A DNA stretch of 64,000 nucleotides, from positions 310,001 to 374,000 of the forward strand of contig CAUYUJ010000026.1 in assembly GCA_963575745.1 (NCBI GenBank), given 5' to 3'. This DNA is from Prorocentrum cordatum. Taxonomy: Eukaryota. Each line of letters opens with the position of its first letter. Positions within the stretch are counted from its first letter, which is position 1. Shown piece after piece: positions 4,636-55,728 of this stretch. The notes beneath the pieces are model-generated. The model was not told the DNA's origin and ran no database searches. It saw nothing but the letters and a program-made list of their open reading frames with translations. The position numbers and the translations under genes were made by a program.

Positions 4636-6079
4636 CCCCCCGCACCTTTTGTGCACCCCCGGTGGAGGGAAGGCTCCCTCTCCCTACGTATCCCCCCTCG
4701 GTTGGCTGAGGCTATTTTGTTGTTGGAGATCTTCCCTACCAATTGGAGGGTCGGCATGGGGGACGGGATAGGCACAGGGGCAGGGATACAGGGAAAAGGA
4801 GAGAGGATCTAGGATTTGGGCTGGGGATATGCGGGGTACTGATAGGCATCAGGATCGGGATCGGGGCAGAGGGGTAGGGATGCAACCGCCGTGCTGCCAT
4901 AAGGATCCCTGAGGTGCTTCTCTGTCCACGGTGAGCCTCGGCCGCGCGCAGGCTCCTCGACCTAGGCACGAGGAGCGGGCCGAAACCCAGAGCCCTATCT
5001 GAGATCACAGCGGTCTTTATCTCAGAGCGCATTCTGTGGACGCTGGGGCCGGTCGGGTGTGGGGGGGGTCGTACCGCCCCCCCCCCCCCCGAGGGGTCGA
5101 ACTGGGTGAGGGGCGGGGTCTGGATTGCAAGGGGGGGTGGTTTGAACAGAGGAGCGCCCCCACCCTTCCTCCATATCTGACAACCGATCACGGCGAGCGC
5201 CGGCGACGACGACGATCGAGCCTCAGCGGGATGCTATTACGGCTGGGTTGGGCCGTCGTAAGATTGGTGTGGCAGTTGGACCGAGCCCTAGTAGGATTCA
5301 ATGAGAGCTTGATCCTGCCGTAGTAGGCCTATATTTGAGTTGGATTGGGCTTTAGTGGGATTCCGCTATCGCTGGGTCGAGCTACAGTGTGACTCTATAA
5401 GAGGTGAACCGACTCTGATAAGCATGCGACTAATTTTGGGCCCAGCTACTGTTGGATTGTATGAAAGCTGGATCGAGCCTCACTAGGAGCCCGCCTCGGA
5501 CTGTGAGAAAATGGGTCCATCTATCGTACAACTCTACTTCGGCTTGATCGAGCACAAGCAGGATCGGATGAATGGGGGGGAGGAAGCGGGGGCGTTTATT
5601 TCGCTCCCCCCCCCTCGAGGGGGAAGTAACGGTTCGCCCCTCCCCTCTTTTCCACGGGGGGGGGGGGGGGGGGGGGAGGGGAGGGGGGGGGCGAGGCTGC
5701 TGCTATCCGCCAGAGAGGGGGGAGGTGAGGGTGTTTCCGAAGGGTTAGGCGACCCCGTCCGCCTCCTCCTCCTCCTCCACCTCTCCTCCCTTCCTCCCCT
5801 CCTCCTCCTCCTCCTCCTCCTCCTCCTCCTCTTCCTCCTCGTCATCCCCCTCCTCATCATCATCCTGTTCCTCTTCCTCCTCCTCCTCCTCATCCTCCTC
5901 CTCCTCCTCTTCCGAGCCTGCTGCCCGAACCCGCAGCGCCCAAGGGGGCAGCGCGCGGGGCGGGCGGCGGGCCAGCGCGGCCTTCGGCGGCCCGCGCCTT
6001 GCGGCGGCGGCAGCGCGGGAGGGCGCTGCCGAGAGCCAGGTCGCCAGCCTGGCATAGACGCGCCCGCAAGCAGAGGGCG

Positions 6080-11390: not shown

Positions 11391-12129
11391 TTCGACTTCG
11401 TCGGCCGCGTCGTCGGCCAGCAGCTCTTCGGCCATATCATCATCTTACCGCTTGTGGCCGAGCAGCTCATCTTCAAGTTCCACGGGCGGCCCGGCGGCCA
11501 TCCCTTCGTCCGCTCCTGTTGGTTCAGCGCAGGGTTTAGCGACTTCGGATATCGAAGGGCCGAAGAGCGATCTTTCGCCATCGGTTCATCGGACGGTACC
11601 CGCGAGGTCCAGCTGTGCCTCAGGACCTGAGACAGGCGGGAGCGTGGGGCGATAGGCGGCGAGACGGACCACGCCTCCAGCCCACGCTCCGCCTCCTCCC
11701 CCCCCTCCTCCTCCATTTCCTCCTCCTCCGCCTCCATCCCTTCCTCCTCCTCCCTTTCCTCCTCCTCCTCCTCCTCCTCCTTCCCTCCCCCCCTCCTCCC
11801 CCTACCTCCTCCTATCGTTCCCCCTCCTCCTCCTCCTCCTCCTCCTCCTCTCCTCTCCTCCTCTCCTTCCACCACCTCCTCCTCCTCCTCTCCTCCCCTC
11901 CCCCCCTCCTCTTCCTCACGTCGCCCACGGCCCGGGGGAAACCGTGATAGGGGGGGGGGGGGGGGATGGGGGGGGGCAGTTCGCCTGGCGCCTCAACTTC
12001 AGGGGGGAGCTATTCCGAACTGTTCAGGAATTCGAACTGTTCAGGAATCTGTTCCAAACGCGCGTCCAAGAGACGCTATCACGGCAGGTACAGAATAGGG
12101 ATGTGGATGTGGATCGGGGTGTGGACAGA

Positions 12130-14050: not shown

Positions 14051-15769
14051 TTAAAATGGTGGCACCAGGGGAGGGCGAGTCCGTCAATGTGGTTCTGAGG
14101 GGCAGCGTGAGGGGGAACAGGCTCAGGGTGGAACGCATCAACCCCCACTCGCCCATGCATCGCCGAGAGGGGCCCGATGGCCTATAGCCCCGCACAGGAG
14201 CGTGCGGACTCGCCATCGGGGGCCTGCTGCCGATCATTCTCCCTTCTCCCTCCGCATCCTTCTTCCCTCCCTCCCTTCTTCTTCTTCTTCTTCTTCTCCT
14301 CCTCCTCCTCCTCCTCCTCCTCCTTATGCCTTATGCCTCTCCTCCTTTCCGCTCCGTAATGCAAACGACTTGTGGAGATTCGTTCGTGACAGCGTTCAGC
14401 TTGTTCAGTCATGTCGCTCTGATCGGCTAGCGCAAACCTTGGTGACGACTCATCCTGGACGTGGTAGCTGAACGCGGGCCTCGTTGCGCGGGGCAAAGCT
14501 CGCTAAGCTTGGCGGCGGCGAGAGACAGCCGATTCACGCCATCTATCCAGAACAAGCCCCTGCGAGTTGTGATCGGACGCTAATCCATGCCTCAGCGGTT
14601 CTCGCAGCGGTGCTCTCAGCGGTACTTTCAGCCTTGCGGGCAGCGGATCACCGCTCGCACCACGCCTCGAAAGAATGCCCCCAGCCGTCGCCAAACACCG
14701 CCCCACCCACCAAGCACCGGCCCAGCTTCTCGCAAGAACATCTGCTTCTCCTGCATAGGGCTTAGGACGGTTAGGAGGCTGCATGACTGCATTGGGGGGC
14801 AAAGGGGGAGAACAACGAGGAATTGGGGAGGGGGGCGACATCGAGTCATTAGCAGGATGATCGCGCGAGAACGGAGGAGCGAGCGCGAAGTGGGCTCCTG
14901 GTGGCGTTGTCGCGTCCCCTCTTGCTGACGCCAGGCTGGTGGTGCCGAGCATCACAGGACGGCAATGTCCTTCGCCGAAGCGTTGTAAAGACGCTGTGGG
15001 TACCCAGTCGAGAGCGGAGGAGGGACGCAGCAACAGGAGGGGGTCAAGGTCAATGCCCCCCCCTCCTGGGGGCAGCCCCCCCTTCTCGTCTCCATCCCGT
15101 TCATCCTCACGGCCTCCCTTGGGGCCCCTGAGCCACTGTCAAAAATCCTCACGGCCACAGGCTCAAAGCAGCAGGATGAGACGCACCGGGTAAGGACAAG
15201 CAGGAGGAGGAGGAGGAGGAGGAGGAGGAGGAGGAGTTGGAGAAGGAGGAGGAGGGGGAGGAGGAGGAGGAGGAGGAGGACAAGAACCACAAGGAGGAGG
15301 TGGAGGAGGAGGAGGAGGAGTACAACGAGGGCAAGGAGAGGGAGGAGGAGGAGGAGGAGGAGGAGGAGGAGGAGGAGGAGGAGAAGGAAGAGGAGGCGGA
15401 GGAGGACCAGTGCAAACCCAAGGCTCATTAACGAGATTGCAATCAACCCTCCCTCCAATTCCCCTTTCCATTGGGCCCTACAGGGGCCGTTTTCGCCGAG
15501 TGGAGTGCCCTGTTCGCAAACAGCCGTTTGAAAATCTTGAACTGTGCCAGAACACCGTTACTGGGTTTGAACACCACGATTCACTGTAGTTGTTGCGTCT
15601 TGACGGTTCTGAATCGTGCCTGAACACCTTTCCTGGGACTTCAACTCCGCGAATCAACCTGACTGTTGCGCCCTGGCAGTCTGACATGTTGACAGAACAC
15701 TGGTTCTGCGCGTTGGCTATGAGAATTCTTGAAATGAAGCTGCAGTTAATTAACTCTTTAGACGAGTTT

Positions 15770-16037
15770 TGAAACGGAGCCGCCCATCCGTGAAGCTCCT
15801 GCAGTTGTTTGAACAAATGCGCGCTGCGCCATGGCCAGAGCCACATTCTGAAAACGACCCGCCCTCCATCCGTGAAGTTCTTATAGGTGTCTAAAAGAAT
15901 GTGCGTGGCGCCAATGCGAGAGCCACATTTTGAGAACGACCCCCCCCATCTGTGAAGCTCTTGGAATGTTTGAAAGCGACTGTGCGCGGCGCCAAGGCGA
16001 GAGCCACATTTCGAAAGCGACCCGCATTCCATCCGTG
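15770..16037. repeat. ~80-bp tandem repeat, about 3.3 copies
   Basis: CCATCCGTGAAG and GAGCCACATT(C/T)(T/C)GA recur with a period of ~80 bp. Confidence 0.8.
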
Positions 16038-17100: not shown

Positions 17101-19516
17101 GAGGCGCTGCGCAATTGACAACTCGGCCGCCGACCCATCCCAGAGCAATTTCCACACTGCGCACGATTTGACGCCTGTGCTTCATCCCGGTCTTCTTCTG
17201 TCTCTCCCTCCTCGTCGTTCTCCTTCCCGCTGGCGACCGGGTCGGGGAAATGGGCGGTCTCTGTCGAACTGTCATCACTTGTCAGACCAGCTTTGCCCGC
17301 ACCATTCCGCATCCTGGCAGCAGGCCGCGCACATCCCAGATGATGTACCTCTTTCGTCGCGCTTTGGCAGGCTTCTGCTGTCCAGAGCCCCACCCGTTTC
17401 CTCCCCGCCTTGCGTGCATGCGTTCCTTGCTTTCCCTCCTCGGCCTTCCCCTCTGCCTCTCTCTTGGGTCGGGTCGGGGTGAGGGGGCTGGCACTGGGGG
17501 GAGGACGCGCGACGAGCTCTGGACCAGAGTAGTTGGCCGCAGTTGTGCCAGCGGGACCCGTCCAGCGAATGATCTAACATGAGACTCACTCGGCATTCCC
17601 ATTGCGGGCGCATTCAATGCCAATGGCAAGCCTGTCAGAGCCGTCACACCCAGAAGCGGTTGCGCTTGAACCGCGATCGCTGTTCACCTCCTGCCCACAA
17701 CACTGTGCAAACCGCAGGAGGGAGCATTTGAAACACAGTCTATTCCCCACCTCCCGCCCCACGCTTCACCCGTACGTTCTTCATCACACGGGTAAGCATG
17801 GTCACGCAAGCCCTTCCGCCCATATGCTCATCCGCGCGGCTGACCAAGAGGGAACAGGACGCAGGGGGGGGAGCTGAGGATGGGGCGGGTGTTGGAGAAA
17901 GCGACGTGCTTTGAACCAGACTGGTCGTCACAGCCGTGACGGCGCGACTGGTCCAGCAAATGCCTTCAGGCTTGGACATGACTCACCCGCTATCCACTGC
18001 GCGCGCCACAGGGATGCAACCCTCGACTTGTCAAAGCCGTCCTGTCACCAGACAACTCCGGCGACGGCGACGTTCCTCCCATCTCCTCCCCCCTTCCTCC
18101 CCTTTCTTTTTCTTCGTGAACCTCTCCGGGGGCTCCACCGTCTCCGCGGCCGTTGCCCGGGGTTCGATTCGCCCATCTCGACTACTCGCGCAGCTGACCA
18201 ACAGGGATCGGGAGTCAGGGGAAAAGCTGGGAGGATTCGCGACGAACTCTGAACCAGACGGGCCGCAGCCGTGCCGGCGCGACCTGGCCAGCGAATGATC
18301 TAACGTGAGACGCATTCGGCATTCTCACTTTGAGCGCCGCAGGTTCGCAACCTGCAGTGCGAACGCCAGACCTGCCATAGCCACGGTGTCCATGGCAGGG
18401 CTGGGTTGACGGTGTCATCAGACTGGCCGGAGCCACGCCCAGCGAGAACGCCACCGCTGATTGCTCATTGCAACCCGGCCACGCTCGGCGAGAACGCCAC
18501 CGCTGACGGCCAACCAACCAGCGGTTCATCAGCGAAAACACCGCCGACGCTGGCGACCGCACCCAGCCTCCCCCAATCCTTCTTTCATCCTCGCCTTCCT
18601 CCGTCCTATCCCTTGGCGCGCGCCCGTGGCACAGCCACAACGGGGTCCGTGTTGGCGGCGGGGGGGTGGGATGAATCGGGAGGGGAGGTCGCATCAGCGT
18701 GTGGATGACGAGGGCGAGAATCCTTCTTTTGCCCATCTTCGCCGGTGGCACGGCGCAGCCAGGGAGTCGACCAACCCCACCAGCAGCGACCGCTGCTGGG
18801 GGGGGGGGGGAGCTGGGGGGCGCGTTCGAAGAACTCTGAGGCCGTCAGTCCTGAGTCCTGCTACGGAGGAGGAGGACGAGAAGGAGGAGGAGGCGGAGGA
18901 GGAGGACGAGGAGTAGGAGGAGGGGTAGGGAGGAGGAGGAGGAGGAGGAGGACGAGGAGGACGAGGAGGAGGAGGAGGACGAGGAGGACGAGGAGTAGAA
19001 GGAGGACGAGGAGGAGGACGCAGAGGACGAGGAGGAGGAGGACGAGGAGGAGGAGGAGGAGCCTGGGAACGCGCTGGGCTCAGCCACCCCCCCCTGCAGT
19101 CGCTCGCCACCGTCTTCGGCCTCACGCAGCAGCAGGCCGACAACAACCTCGCGGTGTCGCTCTCCGTGGCCAGGCGCCCCTCCTACGCGATCCCCCCTTG
19201 CCCCCTTTACCACGAAGGAGGGCCCAGAGCTCTTCTTGGCGCTCGGGGGAAAAATCAACACAGTCAACCCGCATAGCTGGCCAGCCTCGCTCGAAAAACG
19301 CGAAGGTGCCCCCCCCAAGGCCCTTGCATCCTTATCGCGCGTCCTTATTATCCGTAAGGGCTTCGCCCCCTGCTGCCGGCTCCTTCTCGATCATAATGGG
19401 TCAGAATGGGATCTATCAGAGTCGCGTCGGTGCGTCTCAGCGCTGCCTTGGCGCATCTGGGAACAACATGCGGGGGCGGATAGGAATCATCAGCGCAAAT
19501 GAAGACGTTGCCGTTA

Positions 19517-22500
19517 TCGAAGACGCCTACGGCGAATCACCGCCGCTCCCTGCCTTTTTGGAAGCGCCTGCGTGGCCGAAAGTTGGGTTGGAGCTTGGCC
19601 AAGCTATCGGGCCACGCGTTCCCCGAGTGGGTTTCGAAAGCTTTCGGGGAACACGGAGTCGGGCGAGCTATCGGACCAGGTGGTTTCCGAGCTTTCGGGT
19701 TTACTGGAGGACGTCTTGGAGGGCTCTTGGGCCGTCTTGGAGGCCTCTTGCGGGCCGTTTGGGCCGTCATACGCCGTCAGTAGCCGTCTTGGCGGCCTCT
19801 CTGAACGGACTTGAGGTCCTCTTGGGGCGCTTCAGGGCTGTCTTGGAGACCATCTTGGGCGTCTTGGAGGCCTCTTGGGCCGTCTTGGGGCCTTCTTGAG
19901 GCCCTCTAGGGGGCCTCTTGGGCTGACTAGGGCCATGGGCTGACTGGGGCCATCTTAGAGGCCTCTTGGGCGCTCTTGGGTCGATGTTGGGGGCCGCTTG
20001 GACCGTCTTGGGCCGTCGGAGAGCTGAAAAGGAGCGAACGCTACAATCCTTGGAACACCTAAGGCAATTCAATGATTTGGGCCCTTTCGGGCCTTCCTGG
20101 AGGACGTCTCGGAGGGCTCTTGGGCCGTCTTGGGGGCCTCTTGCGGGCCTATAGGGTCGTCTTAGGCCATCTTGAGGCCATGTTGGGCCGTCTTGGGCGC
20201 TCCTTCGGGCCACCTTAGCCGTTTTGACAACCATCTTGGGCGTCTCGGGGGCATTTTGGAGGCCATCTTGGCTGTCTTGGAGGCTATCTTGGGCGTCTTG
20301 GGGGCCTCTTGGGCCGTCTTGGGGCCTTCTTGGAGCCCTCTTGGGGGCCTCTTGGGCTGTCATGGGGCCATCTTGGAGGCCTCTTGGGCGCTCTTGGGTC
20401 GGTGTTGGGGGCCGCTTGGGCCGTCTTGTGCCGTCGGAGAGCTGAGAAGGGCAACGCAATGATTTAAACCCTGTCGGGCCTTCCTGGAGGACGTCTTGGA
20501 ATGCTCTTGGGCCGTCTTGGGGGCTCTTGCGGGCCTTTTGGGCAGTCTTAGGCCGTCTTGAGGCCATCTTGGGCCGTCTTGGGTGCATTTTGGGGCCATC
20601 TTGGCCGTCTTGGAGGCATCTTGGAGACCCATCTTGGGCGTCTTGGAGGCCATCTGGGGCTTCTTGGGAGCCTCTGGGGCCGTCTCGGGGCCTTTTAGTG
20701 GCCGTCTTTGGGGCCTCTTGGGCCGTCCATGGGCCGTCTTGGAGGCTTCTTGGGCACTCTTGGGGCGATCTTGATGGCCTCTTGGGCAGTCTTGGGCCGT
20801 CAGAAGGCCGAAAAGGAGCAAAAGCCAAAATCCTTGGAAAACCCAAGGGAAATCAATAATTTTGACCTCTTCGGGCCGTCCTTGAGGACCCTGGGGGACC
20901 TGTTCGAGGCCTCTTGGGCCGTCTTGGAGGCCTCTTGGAGGCCTCTGGGGCCGTCTTGGGCCGTCTCAGGTGTTTCTTGTGCGAACTTGGAGGCATCCTA
21001 GACTTTTCTGGGCCGTCTTCGAGGCCATCTTGGACCATCTTAGGCGATCTTGGAGTCCATCTTGGAGACCATCTTGGCCATCTTGGAGGCCATCTTGGAG
21101 TCGTCTGGAGCCGAAAAACTTTTTGCAACCGCCTGTTGTGCATCTCTGCGCGCCCTTCCGGATGGCCGAAGCCCAGGGGGAGTTCTTTTGGAGAAGAACC
21201 GAAACCAAAAGCGAAAGGGTTCAGCACGCCGGGCACCCCTGTGATGAATCAACAGGGGGCGGCGGATCGAAGACGCCTGCTGCGAATCACCGGCCCCCCC
21301 CTGCCCTTGTGGAAGCGCCTATGTGTCCAACAGCTAGGCTAGAGCTTGGCCAAGCTATCGGACCATGTGTTCCCCGAGTCGATTTGGAAAGGTTTCGGGG
21401 AACGCGGGGGGGAGGAAGGGGAGGAGGAGAAGAACGAGGAAAAAGGAGAAGGGGGAGGATGCCTCTTCGGAGCTTCTTGAGGCACTCTTGGGCTCGATTG
21501 GGCCATTCTTGGAGGCCAAGTTGGGGCTATCTTGGGCTCTCTTGGGGCCTCTTGAGGGCCTCTTGGGGTCCTTTTGGGGCTTCTCGGGGCTTCTTCCGTC
21601 GGGAGTTGTCTTGGAGCCCTCTCTGGGCCGTCTTGGGGCCCTCTTGGGGCGCTTCAGGGCCGTCTTGGAGACCATCTTGGGCGTCTGGCAGTCCTTTTGT
21701 GCCGTCTTGGGGCCCTCCTGGGGGCGTCTTGGGGGCCTCTTGGGCCGTCATGGGGCCTTCTTGGAGGCCTCTTGGGCGATCTTCGGAGCCTCTTGGGCCG
21801 TCCTCGGCCGACGCAAAGCCCAAAAGACGCACAGGCCAACATCCTTCAAAAACCTGAGGGGAATTCGTGATTTTGGCTTGTCCAGGTCTTCTGGAGGACC
21901 TCTTGGAGGCCTCTTGGGTCGTATTGGAGGCCTCTTGGGGGCCTCTTGCGTCGTCTTGGTCCATCTTGATGCCATCTGAGGCTGTCTTGAGTGCATCTTG
22001 GCTTGTCTTGGAGGCTCTTGGAGGCCATCTTGGCCGTTGGGGATGCATCTTGGAGGCTTGGAGCCGTCTGGAGCAGGACAAACCCTTTGCAACTGGGTCT
22101 GGAAAATCTTTCCGGGTGGCCGGCGGGACGGGCCGAAGCGCCAGGGGGAGCTCTTTTGGAAAAAGAGCCAAAACAAAAACCGAAAGGGTCTTGCACGCCA
22201 GGCACCCCTTTGATGAATCGACAGAGGGCGGCGGATCGAAGACGCCTACGGCGAATCACCGCCGCCCCCTGCCTTTTTGGTAACGCCTATGAGGCCGAAC
22301 GTTGAGGCCAGACCTGCCAAGCTATCGGACCATGTGTTCCCCGAATCGGTTTAGATGAAAGCCTTCGAGAAACACGAAGCGGAGAGTGAGCACGAAGAGG
22401 AAGCGGAAGCGGAAAAGGACAAGGAAGAGTAGGAGGAGGGGGGTTCTTGGAATCCTCATCGGGGCCTCCTTGGCTCTCTTGGGAGAGGGTTCCCAGAGGC

Positions 22501-25500
22501 AACCTTTGCAGGATGTCTCGAACGAAACGCTTATGTTCGAACAAACGTGTCAAACAAACAAGGTGTTTTCAAGATTCTGGCTTCTTGGACTATCTTGGAT
22601 GTCATTCGAGAGCTTTCAGACATGATCTTCGAACCAATGATATACACCATTCAATGTTTTAAGGATGTCCCTAGCGAAACTGTCTTTTTGAACATCCGAA
22701 GACGAAGCGAAGTCATCGAGGTCCCGATCCCAAATGTCTAAGGATGTCTCGAGCGAAACGCTGATTTTTATCATAAGGCTTTTTAGGCTGGAATCCTCCA
22801 GAGAGCGATTTGTTGAGGATGTCCCAAGCGAAACAGCCGTTTTTGAAGCACGAAACCAAAGCCGAAAGGGTCTAGCACGCCAGGCACCCCTGCGATGAAT
22901 CGACAGGGGGCGGCGGATCGAAGACCGTCTTCGATCCGCCGCCATGGGGCCGTCTTGGGGCCCTCTTGGGCCGTCATGGGGCCCTCTTGGGGGCCTCATG
23001 ACGGCCGTCATGGGGCCCTCTTGGGGGCCTCTTGGGCGATCTTTGGGGCATCTGGGGCCGTCTTGGGCCGTCGGAATGCAGAGAAGAAGCAAATTCCAAA
23101 AACCAAAGGAAAATCAATGATGTTGGCTTCTTCGGGCCCTCCTGGAGGACCTCTTGGAGGCCTCTTGGGCCGTCTGGGAGGCCTCTGGGGGGCCTCTTGG
23201 GCCGTCTTGGGCCGTCTTGGACTCCCTTGGGCCGTCTTGGAGGCCGTATTGGACCATCTTGGGCGGACTTGGAGGCCATCTTGGGCCATCTTCGCGATTG
23301 TTTGAGGATATCCCGAGCGAAACGGCCGATTCAGGGAGGATGTTTCGTGGAGTTTGCGGTCCTGGAGGAGCCTCCCCGTACCCCGGCGGGACGGGCCGAA
23401 GCGCCAGTGGGAGTTCTTTTGGAAAAAGAACCAAAACCAAAACCGAAAGGATCCAGCACGCCATGCACCCCTGCGATGAATCAACAGGGGGCGGCGGATC
23501 GAAGACGCCTTCGGCGAATCACCGCCGCCCCCTGCCTTTGTGGAAGCGCCTATGTGGCCGAACGTTGAGGCCAGACCTGCCAAGCTATCGGACCAAGGTT
23601 TTCCCCAAATCGGTTTGGAAAGCCTTCGGGGAACACGTGGGCATCTTGAAGGTCATCTTGGCCGCCTGGAGGCCATTTTGACCTTTTCGGGCCTTTTTGG
23701 AGGACGTCTTGGAGGGCTCGTGGGCCATCTTGGAGGCCATCTTGAGGTCTTGGAGGCCTCTTGGGCCGTCTTGGGGCCTCTTGGGGCCGTCTTGGGCGCC
23801 TCTTGGGCTGTTATGGGGCTATCTTGGAGGCCTCTTGGGCGATCTTGGGTGATCATTGGGAGCTCTTGGGCCGTATCGGGCCGTCGCAAGGCCGAAACGA
23901 AGCAAATGTCAAAATCCTTCAAAAACCTTACGAAAATCACTCTTTTTGGCCTTTTCTGGCCTTCCTGGAGGCCCTCTTAGAGGCCTCTTGGGCCGTCTTG
24001 GGCCAGCTGCGAGCCACCTTCGGCCATCTTGGTGGGCTCCTGGCACGTCTGACGCCGTCGGAAGCTGTTTCGGGGGCCTTTCTGGGCCGACTTGGGGCCC
24101 TCTTGGGGTGCTCCAGGGCCGTCTTAGAGGCCATCTTGGGCGTCTTCGAGACCTCTTGGGCCGTCTTGGCGCTTTCTTTGGGCCGTTTTGGGCGCCTCAA
24201 GGGCCGTTTTGAGCCCATCTTGGAGGCCTCTTGAGCGATTTTGGGGCGACCTCGGCGGTCTGTGGAGCCGTCAAGGGCTGTCGGAAAGCCGAAAAGGCGC
24301 AAATGCCAAAATCCTTCAAAAACCGTTGGGAAATCTGGCGGAACTCTTGAAGGCCTCTTGGGCCGTCTTGGAGGCCTCTTGCGGGCCTTTTGGGTCGTCT
24401 TAGACCATATTGGGGCCGTCTTGGGCCGTCTTGGATACATCTTGGTGCCATCGTAGCCGTCTGAGAGGCCATCTTGGCTGTCTTGGAGGCATTTTGCAGG
24501 CCATCTCGGGCCATCTTCGCGATTTGTTGGGGATGTCCCGAGCGAAACGGATTTTTTTGGCGATGGCAACCGGGTCTTCCGGGTGGCCGGCGGGACGCGC
24601 CGGATCTTCTTTTCGACAAAAGAACCAAAACCAAAACAGAGAGGGTCTAGCACGCCAGGCACCCTTGCGATGAATCGACAGGGGGCGGCGGATCGAAGAC
24701 GCCTACGGCGAATCACCGCCGCCCCCTGCCTTTTTGGAAACGCCTATGAGGCCGAACGTTGAGGCCAGACCTGCCAAGCTATCGGACCATGTGTTCCCCA
24801 AATCGGTTTGGAAAGCCTTCGGGGAACACGTGGGCATCTTGAAGGTCATCTTGGCCGCCGGGAGGCCATATTGACTCTTGCGGGCCTTTTTTGGGGGACG
24901 TCTTAGAGGGCTCTTGGGCCGTCTTGGAGGCCATCTTGAGCGTCTTGGAGACCTCTTGGGCCGCCTTGGGGGCCTCTTGGGGCCGTGTCTTGTGCCTCTT
25001 GGGCGATCTTTGGGGGCACTTGGGCCGTCTCGGGCCGTCGGAAGGCCGAAACGAAGCAAATGCCAAAATCTGTGAAAACAAAACCTCAAGAGAATCCATG
25101 TTTTGGGCTTCATCTGGCCTTCCTGGAGGCCCTCTTGGAGGCCTCCTGGGCCGTCTTGGGCCATCTTAGGGCCATGTTCGGCCGTCTTGGTGGGCTCCTG
25201 GTCCGCCTGACGCCGTCGGAAGCCGTTTGGGGGGCCTCTATGGGCCGACTTGGGGCCATCTGAATGCTCCAGGGCCGTCTTGGAGGCCCATCTTGGGCGT
25301 CTTAAAGGCCTCCTGTGCCGTCTTGGGAGCCTCTTGGAGGCCTCTAGGGCGATCTTTCGGCGGTCTTTGGGGACATTTGGGCCGTCTCGGGCCGTCGGAA
25401 GGCCGAAAAGAAGCAAATGTCAACATCTGTGAAACAAACCTAAGGAAAATCAATGTTTTGGGCCTCGTCTGGCCTTCCTGGAGGCCCTCTTGGGGGCCTC

Positions 25501-28500
25501 TTGGGCTGTCTTGGGCCAGCTTCGAGCCAACTTCGGCCATCTTGGTTTCCTGGCACGTCTGACGCCGTCGGGAGCCGTCTTGGGGGCCTTTCTGGGCCGA
25601 CTTGGGGCCCTCTTGGGGCACTTCGGGGCCGTCTTGGACGCCCATCTTGGGCGTCTTGGAGGCCATCTTGGGCGTGCTGGAGGCCTCTTGGGCCGTCTTG
25701 GGGCCCTCTTGGGGCCATCTTGGAGGCCACTTGGGCCGTCATGGGGCCCTCTTGGGGGCCTCTTGGGCAATCTTGGGGGCCTCTGGGGCCGTCTTGGGCC
25801 GTCGGAATGCCGAGAAGAAGCAAATTCCATAATCCTTCAAAAACCTAAGGAAAATCAATGATGTTGGCGTCTTCGGGCCCTCCTGGAGGACCTCTTGGAG
25901 GCCTCTTGGGCCGTCTGGGAGGCCTCTGGGGGGCCTCTTGGGCCGTCTTGGGCCGTCTTGGACTCCCTTGGGCCGTCTTGGAGGCCGTCTTGGACCATCT
26001 TGGGCGGACTTGGAGGCCATCTTGGGCCATCGTCGCGATTATTTGAGGATGGGATGTCCCGAGCGAAACGGCCGTTTCAGGGAGGATGTTTCGTGGAGCT
26101 TGCGGTCCTGGAAGAGCCTCCCGGTACCCCGGCGGGACGGGCCGAAGCGCCAGAAAACCGAAAGGATCCAGCACGCCATGCACCCGTGCGATGAATCAAC
26201 AGGGGGCGGTGGATCGAAGACGCCTACGGCGAATCACCGCCGCCCCCTGCCTTTGTGGAAGCGCCTATGTGGTCGAACGTTGAGGCCAGACCTGCACAGC
26301 TATCGGACCATGTGTTCCCCAAATCGGTTTGGAAAGCCTTCGGGGAACACGTGGGCATCTTGAAGGTCATCTTGGCCGCCTGGAGGCCATTTTGACCTTT
26401 TCGGGCCTTCTTGGAGGACGTCTTGGAGGGCTCTTGGGCCGTCTTGGAGGCCATTTTGAGCGTCTTGGAGGCCTCTTGGGCCGTCTTGGGGGCCTCTTGG
26501 GGCAGTCTTGGGGGCCTCTTGGGCCGTTCTGGGGCCATTGGGGCAGTCTTGGGGGCCTCTTGGGCCGTTCTGGGGCCATCTTGGAGGCCTCTTGGGCGAT
26601 CATTGGGCGATCTTTGAGAGCTCTTGGGCCGTATCGGGCCGTCGCAAGACCGAAACGAAGCAAATGTCAAAATCCTTCAAAAACCTTACGACAATCACTC
26701 TTTTTGGCCTTTTCTGGCCTTCCTGGATGCCCTCTTGGAGGCCTCTTGGGCCGTCTTGGGCAAGCTGCGAGCCACCTTCGGCCATCTTGATGAGCTCCTG
26801 GCCCGTCTGTCGCCGTCGGAAGCCGTTTCGGGTGCCTTTCTGGGCCGACTTGGGGCCCTCTTGGGGTGCTCCAGGGCCGTCTTAGAGGCCATCTTGGGCG
26901 TCTTCGAGGCCTCTTGGGCCGTCTTGGGGCCCTCTTGGGGCCGTCTCGGGGGCATCTTGGGCCGTCATGGGGCCGTCTTGGGGGCCTCTTGGGCGATCTT
27001 GGGGCGACCTTGGGGGCCTCTGGGGCCGTCACGGGCCGTCGGGAAGCCGAAAAGGCGCAAATGCCCAAATCTTTCAAAAACCTATGGAAATCAAGGATTT
27101 GGGCCTCGTCGGGCCTTCCTGGAGGACCTCTTGGAGGCCTCTTGGGCCGTCTTGGAGGCCTCTTGCGGGCCTTTTGGGCCGTCTTAGACAATATTGAGGC
27201 CATCTTGGGCCGTCTTGGATGCATCTTGGGGCCATCTTAGCCGTCTTGGCCATCTTGGCTGTCTTGGAGGCCATCTTGGAAGCCATCTTGGCTCGCTTGG
27301 AGGCATCTTGCGGGCCATCTTGGGCCATCTTCGCGATTTGTTGAGGATGTTCCGAGCGAAACGGCTGTTTTGGGCATTGACTGATGCAGTTTCCGGGTGG
27401 CCGGCGGGACGGGCCGGAGCCCACTGGGGAGTTCTTTTGGACAAAAGAACCAAAACCAAAACCGAGAGGGTTCAGCACGCCAGGCATCCCTGCGATGAAT
27501 CGACAGGGGGCGGCGGATCGAAGACGCCTACGGCGAATCACCGCCGCCCCCTGGCTTTTTGGAAGCGCCTATGTGGCCGAACGTTGAGGCCAGACCTGCC
27601 AAGCTATCGGACCACGTGTTCCCCGAATCGGTTTGGAAAGCCTTCGGGGAACACGTGGGCATCTTGAAGGTCATCTTGGCCGTCTTGGAGGCCTCTTGGG
27701 CAAGCTTTGGGCGATCTTTGCGGCTTTTTGGGCCGTCTCGGGCCAGCTTCGAGCCAACTTCGGCCATCTTGGTGGGTTCCTGGCACGTCTGAAGCCGTCG
27801 GAAGCCGTTTGGGGGGCCTCTATGGGCCAACTTGGGGCCCGCTTGGAAGGCCCAGGCGTCTTGGAGGCCATCTTGGGCGTGTTGGAGGCCTCTTGGGCCG
27901 TCTTGGGGCCCTCTAGGGGCCATCTTGGAGGCCACTTGGGCCATCAGGGGGCTCTCTTGGGGGCCTCTTGGGCGATCTTGGGGGCTTCTTGGGCCGTCTT
28001 GAGCCGTCGGAGAGCCGAAAAGGCGCAAATGCCAAAATCCTTCAAAACCAAGGGAAAATCAATGATTTTGCCCTCTTCGGACTCTCCTGGAGGACCTCTT
28101 GGAGGCCTCTTGGGCCGTCTGGGAGGCCTCTGGGGGGCCTCTTGGGCCGTCTTGGGCCGTCTTGGACTCTCTTGGGCCGTTTTGGAGTCCGTCTTGGACC
28201 ATCTCGGGCGGACTTGGAGGCCATCTTGGGCCATCTTCGCGATTTTTTGAGGATGTCCCGAGCGAAACGGCCGTTTTTGGGCATTGACATACGGATTTTC
28301 GGCAATTTACGCGTGGCCGGCGGGACGTGCCGGAGCCCACTGGGGAGTTCTTTTAGAAAAAGAACCAAAACCAAAACCTGAAACGTCCAGCACGCCGTGC
28401 ACCCCTGCAAGCAGGGGGCGGCGGATCGAAGACGCCTACGGCGAATCACCGCCGCCCCCTGCCTTTTTGGAAACGCCGATGTGGCCGAAAGTGGGACTAG

Positions 28501-29406
28501 AGCTTGGCCAAGCTATCGGACCATGAGTTCCCCGAGTCGGTTTGGAAAGCTTTCGGGGAACACATGGGAGAGAATGATTATGAACAGGAAGAGGAAGAGG
28601 AAGAAATAGAGTAGGAGGATGAGGGTTGTTAGGAGTCTCTTGGGGCACTTGGGGTCTGTTGGGGGCTTCTTGGGGGCCTCTTGGAGGCCTCTTGGAGGCA
28701 TCTTGGGGGCCTCCTTGGGCCTCTTGGGGGCCTTTGGGGGCTTCCTGGGGGTCTCTTTGGCCGTCTTAGGGCGTTCCTGGTCCGTCTGACGCCGTCTGGA
28801 GCCGTCTTGGGGGCCTCTCTGGCCGTCTTGGGGCCCTCTTGGGGCGCTTCAGGGCCGTCTTGGAGGCCATGTTGGGCGTCTTGGAGGCCTCTTGGGCCGT
28901 CTTGGGGCGCTCTTGGGGCCGTCTTGGGGGGCCCTTGGGCCGTCATAGTGCCTTCTTGGAGGCCTCTTGGGCGATCTTGGGGGCCTCTTGGGCCGTCGGA
29001 AGGCCGAAAAGAAGAAAACGCAAAAAACCTTCAAAAACCTAAGGAAAACCAATGATTTTGGCCTCTTCGGGCTCTCCTGGAGAACGTCTTGGAGGCCTCT
29101 TGGGCCATCTTGGAGGCATCTTGGGGCCATCTTTGCCGTCTTGGAGGGCATCTTGGGCCGTCTTGGAGGCATCTTGGAGCCATCTTAGCCGTCTTAGAGA
29201 CCATCCTGGCCGTCTTAGAGGCATCTTGGAGGCCATCTTGGAACCGTATGGGGCAGGAAATTGGGGAATTGAGCTCCTGGGCATCCTTTCCGGGTGGCCG
29301 GCGGGACGGGCCGAAGCCCACTGGGGAGTTCTTTTAGAAAAAGAACCAAAACCAAAACCTGAAACGTCCAGCACGCCGTGCACCCCTGCAAGCAGGGGGC
29401 GGCGGA
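19517..29406 (-). mobile_element. Head-to-tail concatemer of ~9 non-coding Helitron/Helentron-like units filled with TCTTGG-type satellite
   Basis: The junction CAGCACGCC..CACCCCTG..CAGGGGGCGGCGGA|TCGAAGACGCCTACGGCGAATCACCGCCGCCCCCTG recurs at ~21266, 22235, 22917, 23498, 24692, 26213, 27517 and 28425. The array starts exactly at TCGAAGACGCC (19517) and ends at GGCGGA (29406). Interiors are 9-10 bp GGCCGTCTTG/GGCCTCTTG repeats. The repeat structure is clear; the transposon class is inferred. Confidence 0.75.
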
Positions 29407-29920
29407 TCCTAGTGGCCTTCGGCCCATCCCGCCACCGTGCCTGGGTTGTGGGTTATATGTGCTTGGGTGTCGTGGGAAGCCTTTCAGAAGCATCCTGGAG
29501 GCCGGTTTGGCGCCTCTTGGGGGCCTCTTGGGGCCTCGTGCGGTATCTTTCGGTTCTCTTGGAGGGCTCTCTGGCGCCTCTTGGGGCGCCTCTTGGGGCG
29601 CCTCTTGGGGCATCTTGGGGCCTCTTGGCGCCGTCTTGTGGCCTCCCGGGGGCTTCTCGGAGCGCTTCTTGGACCATCTTGGGGCCCTATTTGGCTGTCT
29701 TGGGGGCCTCGTGGAGGCGTCTTGGGCTGTCTTGGCGCGGTTTGGGGAGCTTCTTGAGCCGTCCTGGAGCGTCGAAGAGCCGGAAATGCGAGAAAGCCGA
29801 CATCCTTCAAAAACCCTTGTAAAATCTACGATTTTGGCCTATTGGGGCTCTCTCGGGAGGCCTCTTGGAGCGCTCTTGGGGCCCTCTTGGGCCGTCTTGG
29901 AATCATCTCTGGGCACCTTG
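29407..29920 (-). mobile_element. Related rolling-circle-like unit of a different subfamily abutting the array; far end not found
   Basis: Begins TCCTAGT-GGCCTTCGGCC-CATCCCGCCACCG (7 nt, hairpin, subterminal motif), followed by CTCTTGG satellite. Confidence 0.55.
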
Positions 29921-29924
29921 GAGT

Positions 29925-30250
29925 TGGCCTCGGCAGTGCGAATATGGAATAATTTTCACGAGTTTATGGCCTCGGGCACGCGAATATGTTTTACATGTGC
30001 GAGGATATGTTGCCTTGGGGATGCAAGAATTGCATGCTTTGCAAGGGCTTGTGGCCTCGAGGAGGCGAGCATTCTATAATTTAGCATGGATTATGGCTTC
30101 GGGGGCGCGAGCACGGCGTGATTTACGAAGGTTTGTTGCCTCGGGGGCGCAACAATTGCATACATTACAAAGGTTTGTGGCTTCGGGGACGCGAGCATTG
30201 TGCAATTTTCGCTGGATTTGGGCATCGGGGGCGCGAATATCGCGTATTTG
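29925..30250. repeat. Degenerate ~40-bp tandem repeat
   Basis: GGC(C/T)TCGGGGGCGCGA-like motif recurs about eight times, separated by AT-rich spacers. Confidence 0.65.
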
Positions 30251-31941
30251 ATGTGTCCCACGCCCGCCCTGGGAATTCAGGCAACGTGATTTGACGTGGT
30301 ACATGTGCTGGTTTGGGGCGGACAGTAAGTCCGGATTGTAACATTGGAGACTTGAAACTGCAATTGGCGCAGGGAGCAGCAACCTAATCCTGCAGCGTGC
30401 AAAGGGGCCAGCGGATACGGGCTGACAGCAAGAATAATCTGTCAGAGCTCCGTGTGGATTCATTAGAGCGGCCCTGGACCCTTGTGGCGGCGCCTCCTGC
30501 GCCGCCCCTGTCGCGCTCCGCACACCAGTCAGAGGGTCTAGCGCCGATCCAAGAGATTCGCGCGAACCTCCTTCGGGACGCCCCCCTCCTATAGCATGAA
30601 GCGCTGGAGGGTGCCAACCCAGATCTCTGACAAGATGTATTATGCAGTCCAAGCGTTTTTCCTGGATTCCGGCCTCCTGGGCCCATCATCGGGCCCCAGG
30701 GGGATCAGGACCGGATTTGCTGCGCAAAGCTGGCCCTGGGGAATGGGTTGAGACCTCTGGGCTGCGGATCGAAACAAATCAGGTTGGCGGATGTTAGGGA
30801 ATGTGGCTTCGGCCTAACCTAGCATACGAGAGGGCTACAAGTGCCATGGGCGGCTCTCAGGGGAGGTAGGGATCTGGGCCAAGTGGGCTCCGCCCACTCG
30901 GCGGAGTGATCTGCCCCCCTGGGCCGCCTTGGGGCACTTGTAGCCCACTGATAGCTCGGTCAGGTCAGATATGTACCCAGCGTAACCTCCGCTTCTCACC
31001 CACCTATCACCGCAGCGCCCCTCGCGCTGATCCAAGCGGCCCTCTTCTCGGCGTGGCAGGTAAGCTCGACTGGAGCATTTCCGTGATCTTCGGGATCTTT
31101 GGTGCCCTCGCTGGGCCCCGCGGACCGCCAGAAGACGGCTCGGGATGCAAAACAGGCCCGCTCTGGACATTTGGTGGTCCACGCTGGAAAAAAAACGCGA
31201 CGTCGGAGATCTGGGTCATTGTCATCGTCATCGTCATCGTCGATTCGGCCCCCGCCGCTTCGCATCGCCCAGCCGGCGGGCCGCCGTCGAGAGGATCGTC
31301 GGCCACGGGCCCTGGCTCGCCGCCTCCCCCTGCCTGGCTCGCCCTCCTGCCTTACCTCAGCGCGCGTTGCGCGCCGCCAAAGGGTCCTTCTGAAGAGGGC
31401 TGCTCACTGTACGATTCGATCCACCCCGATCATCTCCGCCGCGATCCGCGATCCAAAGCCACCCGATCCCGATCCGGCCCTGCGTCGAAACGCTCTGGTC
31501 GTTGAAAGTAGGTGTTGCTGGATGCCCAGGTCCTGATCGACTTTAGGTGCCTTCCTGCTTCAAGGGTCCCGCGGTCTGCCCCCCTCCTCCTCCTCCTTCT
31601 CCTCCTCCTCCTCCTCCTCCTCCTCCTCCTCCTCTCCCTCTTCAGGGGGAGGGCGGAAGCCCAATCCATGTTTCGAGCGGTTTGCCCTCCTCCGCCTCCT
31701 CCTCCTCTTCCTCCTCTTCCTCCTCCTCCTCCTCCTCCTCCTCCTCCTCCTCTTCCCTCCTCCTCAGGGGGCGGGCGGACACCCAATCTTTTTTCGACGC
31801 CGTCCTGCTTCACTGTTTCGGGCTGCTTCTTCCGGCCGACGCGTGCAGGCGCGAGCCGAGCCGTTGCCAGTCCGAGCCGGCCTCGCGAGTCGACCCTGGC
31901 TAAGGTCTCGCCCGTCTTGGCACGAAGGAGAGCAGTCTGAA

Positions 31942-33406
<1,465 letters not shown>

Positions 33407-33742: not shown

Positions 33743-33980
33743 TTGCGAAGGCCTTACGGCCGGTGCCGCCGACCCTGCACGGCGGCGACAACCACGACCA
33801 CAACGACGAAGCGTTCGGGGGCCTCCTGGGGGTAGCTTGGGGGCCCCTTAGATTGGGGGCCCCCTGGGAAGATCTTGGGGGCCGCTCGGGGGCCTCGTGG
33901 GGGCCTTTTGGGACTTCCTGGGGGTCTCTGGGGGGCCTCTTGGGGCCTCTTGGGCTCGCCGCGCGTCGCTGGGCGCTTCC
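33743..33980 (-). mobile_element. End of another element of the same family; other end not identified
   Basis: A|TTGCGAA-GGCCTTACGGCC-GGTGCCGCCGACCCTG, nearly identical to 32050-32084, followed by GGGGCCTCTTGG satellite. Confidence 0.6.
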
Positions 33981-53989: not shown

Positions 53990-54388
<399 letters not shown>

Positions 54389-55385: not shown

Positions 55386-55386
55386 T

Positions 55387-55471
<85 letters not shown>

Positions 55472-55561
55472 TTGTTGTTGTTGTTGCTGTTGTTGTTGTT
55501 GTTGTTGTCGTCGTCGTCGTCGTTGTTGTTGTTGTTGTTGTTGTTGTTTGTTGTTGTTTGT

Positions 55562-55602
<41 letters not shown>

Positions 55603-55612
55603 TTGTTGTTGC

Positions 55613-55655
<43 letters not shown>

Positions 55656-55693
55656 GGTGTTGTTGTTGTTGTTGTTGTTGTTGTTGGTGTTGG

Positions 55694-55727: not shown

Positions 55728-55728
<1 letters not shown>

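What the first reader, a model, noticed from the sequence alone, without database searches (positions are those of the whole stretch)
19517..29406. A 9.9-kb 'satellite' is a precisely bounded head-to-tail concatemer of rolling-circle-like elements
Seen: nine units of unequal length (~0.6-1.75 kb) with hypervariable TCTTGG-repeat interiors and strongly conserved ends. On the minus strand each unit starts TCCGCCGCCCCCTG, which can pair with the adjacent CAGGGGTG..GGCG. Each ends CAGGGGGCGGCGG (inverse of the start), TGATT, hairpin CGCC-GTA-GGCG, then TCTTCGA. The array begins and ends exactly at unit boundaries, with no spacer or duplication at the joints. Established: Helitrons start with TC, have a subterminal 3' hairpin, insert between A and T without a TSD and form tandem arrays; Helentron/DINE-1-type elements have subterminal IRs and internal tandem repeats. 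Inference: this is a non-autonomous rolling-circle family mixing both sets of hallmarks, lacking the canonical CTRR end, and acting as a satellite generator.
Basis: partly seen in the sequence, partly recalled or inferred. Interest (0 to 1): 0.85.

Follow-up and report, generated by a model that had tools for sequence, protein, structure and literature searches.

The report
Tandem array of Helitron2-type transposon relics
The 9.9-kb "satellite" is a head-to-tail chain of nine protein-less copies of a rolling-circle (Helitron2/Helentron-type) transposon family that is very abundant in a GC-rich marine eukaryote; this is a known kind of element seen in a little-studied host.

Summary
The array is real. 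Nine head-to-tail units lie at 19517-29406 and read 5'->3' on the minus strand. Eight are complete. One (U4) lost its 3' end to a palindromic rearrangement. Each unit has a 13-nt repeat at its 5' end that sits inside a 5' hairpin. An inverted copy of that repeat lies 23 nt from the 3' end, followed by a 4-bp hairpin and a 7-nt tail. The interior holds variable repeats phased at about 10.6 bp. This is the published Helitron2/Helentron (HLE2, HINE/DINE-1-like) architecture, not a mix of Helitron hallmarks. The termini are about 96% identical between units, against 77-81% just inside them. The same termini cap an unrelated interior in a metagenome contig. Two further families keep the architecture with different repeat and hairpin sequences. 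No Rep/helicase gene is in the window and no genome was held, so the autonomous partner, the target site and empty sites are untested. Only the left edge meets unrelated DNA; the right edge abuts a tenth, diverged unit. A 2.1-kb higher-order duplication shows that unequal recombination also enlarged the array. Verdict: a new member of a known kind, of moderate interest.

The parts
19517..21266 (-). Unit U1 (1750 bp), complete; two full internal spacer modules by the automatic count, plus a shorter one read by eye; 3' module of variant A
   Evidence: the truncated third spacer near 20440-20470 was read by eye and not counted by any search
21267..22235 (-). Unit U2 (969 bp); 3' repeat and hairpin are degenerate (GGGGGGGGCCGG; CGCA-GCA-GGCG)
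22236..22917 (-). Unit U3 (682 bp); the interior lacks the TCTTGG block and instead holds about four copies of a GGATGTC..GCGAAAC sub-motif that also occurs in the 5' module
22918..23498 (-). Unit U4 (581 bp), truncated at its 3' end: no 3' repeat, hairpin or 3' module
22909..22943 (.). 35-bp perfect palindrome (17-nt arms around one base) made of the U3 5' end plus tail and its inverted copy. It lies just before the left limit (22948) of the aligned 2.1-kb duplication
   Evidence: read directly; duplication limits
23499..24692 (-). Unit U5 (1194 bp), complete
24693..26213 (-). Unit U6 (1521 bp), complete; three spacer modules
26214..27517 (-). Unit U7 (1304 bp), complete; the reference unit for folds and alignments
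27518..28425 (-). Unit U8 (908 bp), complete; short-loop variant of the 5' hairpin
28426..29406 (-). Unit U9 (981 bp), complete; short-loop 5' hairpin combined with the variant A 3' module (a mosaic)
29407..29914 (-). Tenth, diverged and 5'-incomplete unit. Its 3' end reads GGTGGCGG-GATG-GGCC-GAA-GGCC-ACTAGGA, followed inward by TCTTGG repeats and one spacer module. No matching 5' repeat was found
   Evidence: contigs of run X9 lose their match exactly at 29406 (table 7)
27504..27517 (-). Example of the 5' end: T plus the 13-nt terminal repeat CCGCCGCCCCCTG (U7). It lies inside a 5' hairpin with CAGGG..GGCG about 11 nt downstream
   Evidence: -10.9 kcal/mol, z -2.58
26214..26249 (-). Example of the 3' end (U7): inverted repeat CAGGGGGCGGCGG, TGATT, hairpin CGCC-GTA-GGCG, tail TCTTCGA. 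The repeat ends 23 nt from the terminus
22948..24941 (.). One copy of a 2.1-kb higher-order duplication. The other copy is 25682-27754 (84.8% identity over 2123 columns). It spans two unit junctions
19516..19516 (-). The only element-to-unrelated-DNA boundary. On the minus strand it reads ...TCTTCGA | T | AACGGCAACG. This T is either the host base or the last base of the element
   Evidence: the left flank shows no similarity to element modules above chance

Best explanation
The region is a head-to-tail concatemer of non-autonomous Helitron2/Helentron-type (HLE2; HINE/DINE-1-like) rolling-circle transposons, oriented on the minus strand.

Each unit has this layout:
- 5'-T, then a 13-nt terminal repeat folded into a 5' hairpin.
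- A 5' module of about 150-200 nt.
- Central repeats: blocks of 10-11-bp CCAAGA units separated by A-rich spacers of about 65 nt, 0-3 per unit. Their number sets the unit length.
- A 3' module of about 100 nt.
- The inverted copy of the terminal repeat, then a 4-bp/3-nt hairpin, then a 7-nt tail ending in A. A T follows the tail.

Inferred mechanism. A Rep/helicase encoded elsewhere nicks at the 5' T, peels off one strand and stops where the 3' hairpin and repeat pairing mark the end. Joining the 3' end to the 5' end gives exactly the junction seen between units.

Arrays could then arise in two ways, neither shown here. Termination could fail, or a circle could be copied more than once. Alternatively, new copies could insert right behind the 3' end of a resident copy, which resembles a cleavage site.

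What is shown: later growth of this array included at least one 2.1-kb unequal-recombination duplication and one fold-back rearrangement. The anatomy, the conservation pattern, the shared termini on unrelated interiors and the abundance are also shown. What is inferred: rolling-circle mobilisation, the Rep/helicase partner and the way the array began.
For: 1. Fit to the definition. The 5' repeat starts 1 nt from the unit start. The 5' hairpin uses that repeat (U7 -10.9 kcal/mol, z -2.58). The 3' repeat ends 23 nt from the terminus, directly upstream of a hairpin. These match the passages read in PMC3627910, PMC4067079, PMC11417382 and PMC7492417. The last three describe 11-16-nt repeats, a 5' inverted repeat nested in the terminal repeat, central repeats or a microsatellite, and a 3' stem-loop.
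2. Constraint on the termini. The last 39 alignment columns at the 3' end have 95.6% mean pairwise identity among 8 units, against 80.9% in the next 61 columns. The first 14 columns at the 5' end have 96.8% among 9 units, against 76.7% in the next 46. Variable columns number 6 of 39 against 30 of 61 (p = 6e-4), and 2 of 14 against 27 of 44 (p = 5e-3).
3. Same termini, different cargo. Metagenome contig L002 carries the identical 50-nt junction on an unrelated interior, itself tandem with a period of about 1013 bp (85.7% identity over 217 columns). Its 5' hairpin has a different and longer stem (z -4.46).
4. Same architecture, different sequence. In L001 the neighbouring element starts TCCCACCAGCCC. 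About 1 kb away it carries the exact 11-nt inverse, 22 nt from a 4-bp hairpin (ACGC-GAA-GCGT) and tail. The tenth unit in the window has the hairpin GGCC-GAA-GGCC. That makes three different 4-bp stems at the same place.
5. Junctions between different families (L001, and U9 with the tenth unit) cannot come from duplicating a single unit.
6. All four combinations of the 5' hairpin variant and the 3' module variant occur among the 8 units, so the units are mosaics.
7. No protein domain was found in any of the 47 ORFs of the array, and no Rep, helicase or transposase in any of the window's 251 ORFs of 130 aa or more.
8. Abundance. 2,727 to 236,297 short contigs from four runs lay on the stretch, and summed depth on the array was far above that on the flanks. 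The tool warns that this figure is not a copy number.
9. Head-to-tail Helitron junctions and tandem arrays are in print, and one paper reports them as more frequent for Helitron2 (passages in PMC5876387; PMC12001565).
Against: - No Rep/helicase gene with these termini was found. None could be looked for, because no genome is held.
- No solo copy, no empty site and no 5' end next to non-element DNA was seen. All 11 5' ends examined (9 in the window, 2 in metagenome contigs) abut another element.
- The T-T target expected for HLE2 could not be tested. None of the four possible phasings of the shared ATC gives T/T at this array's edges, though the right edge is another element rather than host DNA.
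- Units are only 70-85% identical, and a 2.1-kb higher-order duplication exists, as in an ordinary old satellite.
- The 3' hairpin is very small (4 bp). The isolated 3' end does not fold better than shuffles (z -0.21).
- The L001 neighbour's 3' end has no significant sequence similarity to the canonical one (score 4, 663 of 2000 shuffles reach it). Its assignment rests on architecture alone.
Confidence: 0.75

Rival explanations
1. This is an ordinary satellite. A roughly 1-kb unit that happens to contain a 13-bp inverted repeat around a 24-nt loop was amplified only by unequal crossing-over and replication slippage. No transposition took place. The hairpins reflect DNA-structure or protein-binding constraints of the satellite.
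For: There is a higher-order 2.1-kb duplication at 84.8% identity. Units have diverged to 70-85% identity. Every copy seen, in the window and in L001 and L002, lies in an array. No transposase is nearby.
Against: Termini are far better conserved than adjacent non-repetitive modules. An identical 50-nt junction sits on an unrelated interior in L002. Junctions join different families (L001; U9 with the tenth unit). Another family has a different but still matching pair of terminal repeats. The left edge of the array falls at the predicted 3' terminus, about 23 nt beyond the inverted repeat.
Confidence: 0.12
2. This is a mobile element of another class. One option is a 13-bp terminal-inverted-repeat or foldback element that inserts into a specific 24-nt target. 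Another is a circular element integrated by site-specific recombination through the shared ATC core, with multimers formed by repeated integration.
For: The 13-nt arms are perfect inverted repeats. ATC is present at both edges of the array, and once at each junction, as expected for a crossover core. The junction forms a strong stem (-27.3 kcal/mol, z -4.41).
Against: The 24 nt between the arms, including the hairpin, travel with the element in other families and vary together with them. They are therefore part of the element and not a host target. The right-hand ATC belongs to a neighbouring related element, which removes the evidence for a core or duplication. The asymmetric placement of the repeats (1 nt from one end, 23 nt from the other) is the Helitron2 signature. 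No recombinase or DDE transposase was found in the window.
Confidence: 0.08
3. This is an assembly artefact. Dispersed copies of an abundant repeat were wrongly chained together by the assembler.
For: The family is very abundant, and no laid contig spans more than a few hundred bases of the array.
Against: Units differ in length and sequence and carry unit-specific variants. Two independent metagenome contigs show the same head-to-tail junctions. Short contigs from other runs match unit-specific parts of U9 with 0-2 differing letters plus 1-2 gaps over 166-290 nt (table 8).
Confidence: 0.04

Closest known systems
Helitron2 group (Bao & Jurka 2013, PMC3627910), also called HLE2 (HELIANO, PMC11417382)
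   Same: Asymmetric terminal inverted repeats of 13 nt. The 5' repeat lies 1 nt from the end and inside a 5' hairpin. The 3' repeat lies 23 nt from the end, directly upstream of a hairpin. The 5' base is T and there is no CTRR.
   Different: No Rep/helicase partner has been identified. The T-T target is untested. The host appears to be a GC-rich marine protist. The passages and supplement table I read in these papers describe no Helitron2 element from a haptophyte. I could not name the organism of the window.
Helentron-associated interspersed elements: DINE-1 in Drosophila, HINE in mites and mosquitoes (PMC4067079), Cg_HINE in oyster (PMC7492417)
   Same: Non-coding. Subterminal repeats of 11-13 nt. 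An inverted repeat nested at the 5' repeat. Central tandem repeats or a microsatellite that make up much of the length. A 3' stem-loop. A source of satellite-like DNA.
   Different: Here whole elements are chained head to tail, in addition to the internal repeats. The central repeat is a 10-11-bp unit phased at about 10.6 bp, with A-rich spacers of about 65 nt. No strings of T were seen at the ends.
Tandem arrays of whole Helitrons in bats, plants and Xenopus (cited in PMC5876387 and PMC12001565)
   Same: Precise junctions of a 3' end to a 5' end, identical to the junction of the circular transposition intermediate. Arrays of two to several units.
   Different: This array has nine or ten units of unequal length and mosaic make-up, and it includes junctions between different families. 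The bat and plant cases cited are canonical Helitrons; PMC12001565 reports Xenopus arrays mostly from a Helitron2 family.
Canonical Helitron (HLE1)
   Same: A 5' TC is possible. There is a hairpin near the 3' end. A T follows the 3' end. No target-site duplication is evident.
   Different: No CTRR end (the tail is TCTTCGA). Terminal inverted repeats and a 5' hairpin are present. The hairpin is 11 nt, not 16-20 nt.

Membership tests
Helitron2 / HLE2 (Helentron-type) rolling-circle transposons | 5' terminal inverted repeat 0-2 bp from the 5' end | tested here: met
   9 of 9 units start T + CC(G/A)CCGCCC(C/T)CTG directly after the previous unit's tail. The absolute end is ambiguous by up to 3 nt.
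Helitron2 / HLE2 (Helentron-type) rolling-circle transposons | 3' inverted repeat about 20-30 bp from the 3' end, immediately upstream of a hairpin | tested here: met
   8 of 9 units carry CAGGGGGCGGCGG (degenerate in U2), then 23 nt to the end, beginning TGATT + CGCC-GTA-GGCG. U4 lacks it. The distance is 22 nt in two other families.
Helitron2 / HLE2 (Helentron-type) rolling-circle transposons | 5' hairpin that involves part or all of the 5' repeat | tested here: met
   U7 z -2.58 and L002 z -4.46, with a different stem sequence. The U8 short-loop form is weak (z -0.91).
Helitron2 / HLE2 (Helentron-type) rolling-circle transposons | 3' hairpin kept by compensating changes | tested here: met
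   Three stems occupy the same position: CGCC/GGCG, GGCC/GGCC and ACGC/GCGT. Only three families were available, so the sample is small.
Helitron2 / HLE2 (Helentron-type) rolling-circle transposons | Insertion between T and T without target-site duplication | tested here: inconclusive
   Two 3' ends meet non-element DNA and both are followed by T (window 19516; L001 near 595). No 5' end meets host DNA. No empty site is available.
Helitron2 / HLE2 (Helentron-type) rolling-circle transposons | An autonomous relative encoding Rep/helicase with the same termini | not testable with these tools
   No genome is held. No such domain occurs in the window's 251 ORFs. Viral and prokaryote collections gave 0 hits.
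HINE / DINE-1-like non-autonomous Helentron derivatives | Non-coding, with central tandem repeats or a microsatellite between conserved end modules | tested here: met
   No Pfam hit in 47 array ORFs. The bins that hold the array and the tenth unit contain 277 of the window's 311 + strand TCTTGG. Spacer modules number 0-3 per unit and track unit length.
Canonical Helitron (HLE1) | 3' CTRR end and no terminal inverted repeats | tested here: not met
   The tail is TCTTCGA, and 13-nt inverted repeats are present.
Classical satellite DNA (no mobile origin) | Uniform decay along the monomer, and one monomer family per array | tested here: not met
   Termini are about 96% identical against 77-81% for the neighbouring columns. 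Junctions between different families exist.

The most novel reading that the evidence does not exclude
These elements may be obligate array-builders. All 11 5' ends seen (9 in the window, 2 in two independent metagenome contigs) sit directly on the 3' terminus of another element, and that element sometimes belongs to a different family. This would fit terminus-targeted insertion. In that model the Rep enzyme treats a resident 3' end (hairpin + tail + A|T) as its preferred target, because it resembles its own cleavage site, and so builds mixed concatemers. If so, this superfamily, with its central repeats phased at 10.6 bp, could account for a sizeable part of the still unclassified repeat fraction of a major marine phytoplankton genome. 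It would then be a natural system in which a rolling-circle transposon generates satellites by design rather than by accident.
Probability: 0.25. Interest if true: 0.65.

Novelty: new member of a known kind. Interest (0 to 1): 0.42.

Why it matters
The result assigns a very abundant, previously unlabelled repeat of a GC-rich marine eukaryote to a defined transposon group. That helps with repeat masking, gene annotation and assembly in genomes where a large repeat fraction is still uncategorised; PMC5963040 (passage read) cites 30.9% uncategorised sequence for Emiliania huxleyi.

It also gives a clean natural example of a whole-element Helitron2 concatemer that includes junctions between different families. 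This bears on how rolling-circle transposons seed satellite DNA.

The terminal motifs defined here are ready-made probes for finding the autonomous Rep/helicase copy.

Tried and rejected
- Whole-genome search: no genome is held for this window.
- Earlier notes of this scan, by place, by sequence and by words: nothing.
- Scans of the viral and the prokaryote collections with a 26-nt terminal motif: 0 hits each.
- Naming the organism through the window's only recognisable gene, a WD40 gene: the search returned generic WD40 proteins and was uninformative. 'Marine' rests on the labels of runs that hold part of the stretch. 'Haptophyte-like' is my guess from GC content and repeat style.
- Expression: no RNA holder was listed. 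Run X9 is only guessed to be RNA, so its high depth says nothing about transcription.
- Confirming the array and looking for an empty site by laying four runs: only short contigs were available and none spans the array. The 15 joints shown of more than 13,000 all lie within the repeats. No conclusion is possible on assembly or on empty sites.
- Rfam (E up to 0.1) over 18500-30500 and a tRNA scan of the whole window: nothing, so there is no SINE-like or known RNA origin.
- Similarity of the left flank (19000-19516) to the end modules: not above shuffled controls. My by-eye idea of a further degenerate 3' end near 19333-19380 is therefore dropped.
- A matching 5' repeat for the tenth unit: not found (2 hits against 1.54 expected, and neither is in the right place or orientation).
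- Sequence similarity of the L001 neighbour's 3' end to the canonical end: not significant.
- An approximate-regex count of spacers timed out. A short-word BLAST was too strict. Both were replaced.
- Literature. The four terminal strings occur in no relevant paper (5 papers hold a term and the 3 listed are unrelated; the two 18-nt strings occur in none). The search for 'Emiliania huxleyi' with 'Helitron' found 5 papers, 4 listed. Judged by titles and abstract starts for all 4, and by passages read in two of them, none describes such an element. Read et al. 2013 is not held. The HELIANO supplement lists one haptophyte genome among the species surveyed, but no result row for it appears in the held text.
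Full report
**What is there**

Reading 19000-30400 and cutting at the recurring junction gives nine head-to-tail units. On the + strand they are:
- U1 19517-21266
- U2 21267-22235
- U3 22236-22917
- U4 22918-23498
- U5 23499-24692
- U6 24693-26213
- U7 26214-27517
- U8 27518-28425
- U9 28426-29406

Their lengths range from 581 to 1750 bp.

The recurrence is far beyond chance:
- The 50-nt junction (13-nt repeat, 24 nt, inverted 13-nt repeat) occurs 6 times with at most 1 mismatch, against 0.00 expected.
- The 13-mer occurs 19 times with at most 1 mismatch, against 0.67 expected. Sixteen of these lie in the array. The other three (31320, 38468, 46623) each have one mismatch.
- The 18-mer around the small hairpin occurs 8 times, all in the array, against 0.05 expected.

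Of the eight internal junctions, six are canonical. One (U1|U2) is degenerate. One (U3|U4) is rearranged.

**Anatomy of a unit on the minus strand**

1. T, then CCGCCGCCCCCTG.
2. After a loop of about 11 nt (4 nt in U8 and U9), CAGGG..GGCG pairs back onto that repeat to form a 5' hairpin.
3. A 5' module of about 150-200 nt with further small palindromes.
4. A central region of CCAAGA-type 10-11-bp repeats (TCTTGG on the + strand), broken by A-rich spacers of about 65 nt.
5. A 3' module of about 100 nt.
6. CAGGGGGCGGCGG, the exact inverse of the 5' repeat.
7. TGATT, then the hairpin CGCC-GTA-GGCG, then the tail TCTTCGA.

The number of spacers per unit found by the automatic count is 2, 1, 0, 1, 2, 3, 2, 1, 1 for U1 to U9. 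By eye, U1 also holds a truncated third spacer. The count tracks unit length, so length variation comes from copy number of an internal repeat of about 350-400 bp.

TCTTGG is strand-specific and almost confined to this cluster. The 1-kb bins 19001-30000, which also hold the tenth unit, contain 277 of the window's 311 + strand occurrences and none on the minus strand.

Spacings between CTTGG words peak at 10-11, 21, 32, 42-43, 53, 63-64 and 74-75 bp. That is a period of about 10.6 bp.

No ORF of the array has a Pfam match (47 ORFs). The only domains above Pfam's cut-offs among the window's 251 stop-to-stop ORFs of 130 aa or more are WD40 repeats at 58994-60529. There are no Rfam or tRNA matches.

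**Where the description needs correcting**

- U4 has no 3' end. At 22909-22943 there is a perfect palindrome with 17-nt arms. It is built from U3's 5' end plus the tail and their inverted copy, and it runs straight into central repeats.
- This palindrome sits just before the left limit (22948) of a 2.1-kb segment, 22948-24941. That segment recurs at 25682-27754 with 84.8% identity and spans two junctions. So part of the array grew by ordinary segmental duplication, and I read the palindrome as a fold-back scar beside its left end.
- The right edge is not a boundary with host DNA. Bases 29407-29451 align to the canonical 3' terminal 45 nt (score 15; null 4.09 +/- 1.83; 0 of 2000 shuffles). They have the same layout (GGTGGCGG, GATG, GGCC-GAA-GGCC, ACTAGGA). 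TCTTGG repeats and a spacer follow up to about 29914.
- This tenth unit has no detectable 5' repeat.
- Contigs of one run lose their match exactly at 29406, with varied sequence beyond (table 7). That fits a family terminus at that point.
- Only the left edge meets DNA unrelated to the element. On the minus strand it reads ...TCTTCGA, T, AACGG.
- Because ATC is shared at both edges, the termini are uncertain by up to 3 nt.

**Evidence from elsewhere**

No genome is held. One metagenome scan with a 31-nt 3' motif gave two short contigs.

L002 has the identical 50-nt junction, but its interior is unrelated beyond about 45 nt at the 3' side. Its 5' hairpin is longer and of different sequence (z -4.46). 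It is itself tandem with a period of about 1013 bp.

L001 has a canonical 3' end joined to the 5' end of a different element, which starts TCCCACCAGCCC. About 1 kb away that element carries the exact 11-nt inverse. This is followed by GAT, a hairpin ACGC-GAA-GCGT and the tail CAACAATA, 22 nt in all, and then by a T and unrelated DNA. That 3' end has no significant sequence similarity to the canonical one (663 of 2000 shuffles score as well). The match is one of architecture: the two terminal repeats changed together.

Across the three kinds of 3' end, the 4-bp stem is kept with three different sequences.

Four public runs, some labelled as organisms and others as marine metagenomes in the listing, gave 2,727 to 236,297 short contigs that lay on the stretch. 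Summed depth on the array was far above that on the flanks. The tool warns this is not a copy number, so I take it only as a sign of a very abundant family. Viral and prokaryote collections had no match.

**Conservation pattern**

Among the window's units:

| Region | Mean pairwise identity | Variable columns |
|---|---|---|
| 3' last 39 columns | 95.6% | 6 of 39 |
| 3' next 61 columns | 80.9% | 30 of 61 (Fisher p = 6e-4) |
| 3' further in | 65.5% | not counted |
| 5' first 14 columns | 96.8% | 2 of 14 |
| 5' next 46 columns | 76.7% | 27 of 44 (p = 5e-3) |

All four combinations of the 5' hairpin variant (long or short loop) and the 3' module variant (A or B) occur among the eight units that have both ends. 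The units are therefore mosaics.

A satellite decaying in place would not keep just its ends. A family whose members each had to be recognised at their ends would.

**What it is**

The passages I read define Helitron2 as follows (PMC3627910):
- short asymmetric terminal inverted repeats;
- the 5' one 0-2 bp from the end and forming a 5' hairpin;
- the 3' one 20-30 bp from the end and upstream of the hairpin;
- a 5' T.

HELIANO describes canonical HLE2 as 12-16-nt repeats at both ends, a stem-loop after the right one, and insertion between T and T (PMC11417382).

The non-coding derivatives (DINE-1, HINE, Cg_HINE) have 11-13-nt subterminal repeats, an inverted repeat nested at the 5' repeat, central repeats or a microsatellite, and a 3' stem-loop (PMC4067079; PMC7492417).

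The units here meet every structural point. So this is not a blend of Helitron and Helentron hallmarks. It is the Helitron2/Helentron layout.

Head-to-tail junctions and tandem arrays of Helitrons are known, and one paper reports them as more frequent for Helitron2 in Xenopus (PMC5876387; PMC12001565). The precise joint of 3' end to 5' end is that of the circular intermediate shown for Helraiser (PMC5876387).

**How it most likely works**

This part is inferred.
1. A Rep/helicase encoded elsewhere nicks at the 5' T and unwinds one strand.
2. The 3' hairpin, and pairing of the two terminal repeats, mark the stop. The junction stem folds at -27.3 kcal/mol, z -4.41.
3. Joining the ends gives the circle junction seen between units.

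Arrays can start in two ways: by missed termination or multiple rounds on a circle, or by insertion just behind a resident 3' end. The second route is the only simple way to get junctions between different families.

All 11 5' ends seen abut another element's 3' end. Both 3' ends that meet unrelated DNA are followed by T. Unequal recombination then reshaped the array, and that step is shown.

**What remains open**

- The Rep/helicase partner.
- The target dinucleotide.
- Empty sites.
- Circular forms.
- Long-read confirmation of the assembly.
- The identity of the organism.

Searches of the paper library found no description of these terminal sequences. They also found no Helitron-type element described in Emiliania huxleyi among the papers listed. 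Repbase could not be consulted, so the family may already be deposited there.

**Verdict**

This is a well-supported new member of a known kind. Interest is moderate. It would rise if terminus-targeted insertion or a large genomic share were shown.

Noticed in passing
window 19517-29914: The central repeats are phased at about 10.6 bp. CTTGG spacings peak at 10-11, 21, 32, 42-43, 53, 63-64 and 74-75 bp. This is close to the DNA helical repeat and might mean curved DNA or nucleosome positioning.
   Followed up: partly
window 22909-22943: A perfect 35-bp palindrome (17-nt arms) replaces the 3' end of unit U4. It lies just before the left limit (22948) of the 2.1-kb duplication and looks like a fold-back repair scar at a junction.
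   Followed up: partly
window 30008-30236: A 126-bp tandem repeat (1.8 copies, 79% matches) lies directly beyond the tenth unit. It is unrelated to the array.
   Followed up: no
window 33810-33963: An isolated patch of about 150 bp of the same TCTTGG-type repeat, in the same strand orientation, without recognisable element ends.
   Followed up: partly
window 5758-5913, 11687-11917, 15202-15406, 18865-19061, 31583-31765, 32120-32368, 32389-32841: Many long trinucleotide arrays (TCC/GGA/CTC/AGG, and GAT x84 at 32120-32368). The CCT and GGA arrays at 31.6 and 32.7 kb form long inverted repeats.
   Followed up: no
window 15784-16037: An 82-bp tandem repeat, 3.1 copies, 76% matches.
   Followed up: no
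window 33139-33267: A T-rich tandem repeat with a 13/26/53-56-bp period.
   Followed up: no
window 58994-60529: The only recognisable protein-coding signal in 64 kb: WD40 repeats in two + strand ORFs (E 1.3e-32 and 2e-06), probably exons of one gene.
   Followed up: partly
window 54001-56000: Extreme AT skew (-0.597) with lower GC (0.536) than the surroundings.
   Followed up: no
L001 1-470: A long (GTCG)n-type microsatellite lies a little over 100 bp beyond the 3' end of the divergent element in this metagenome contig.
   Followed up: no
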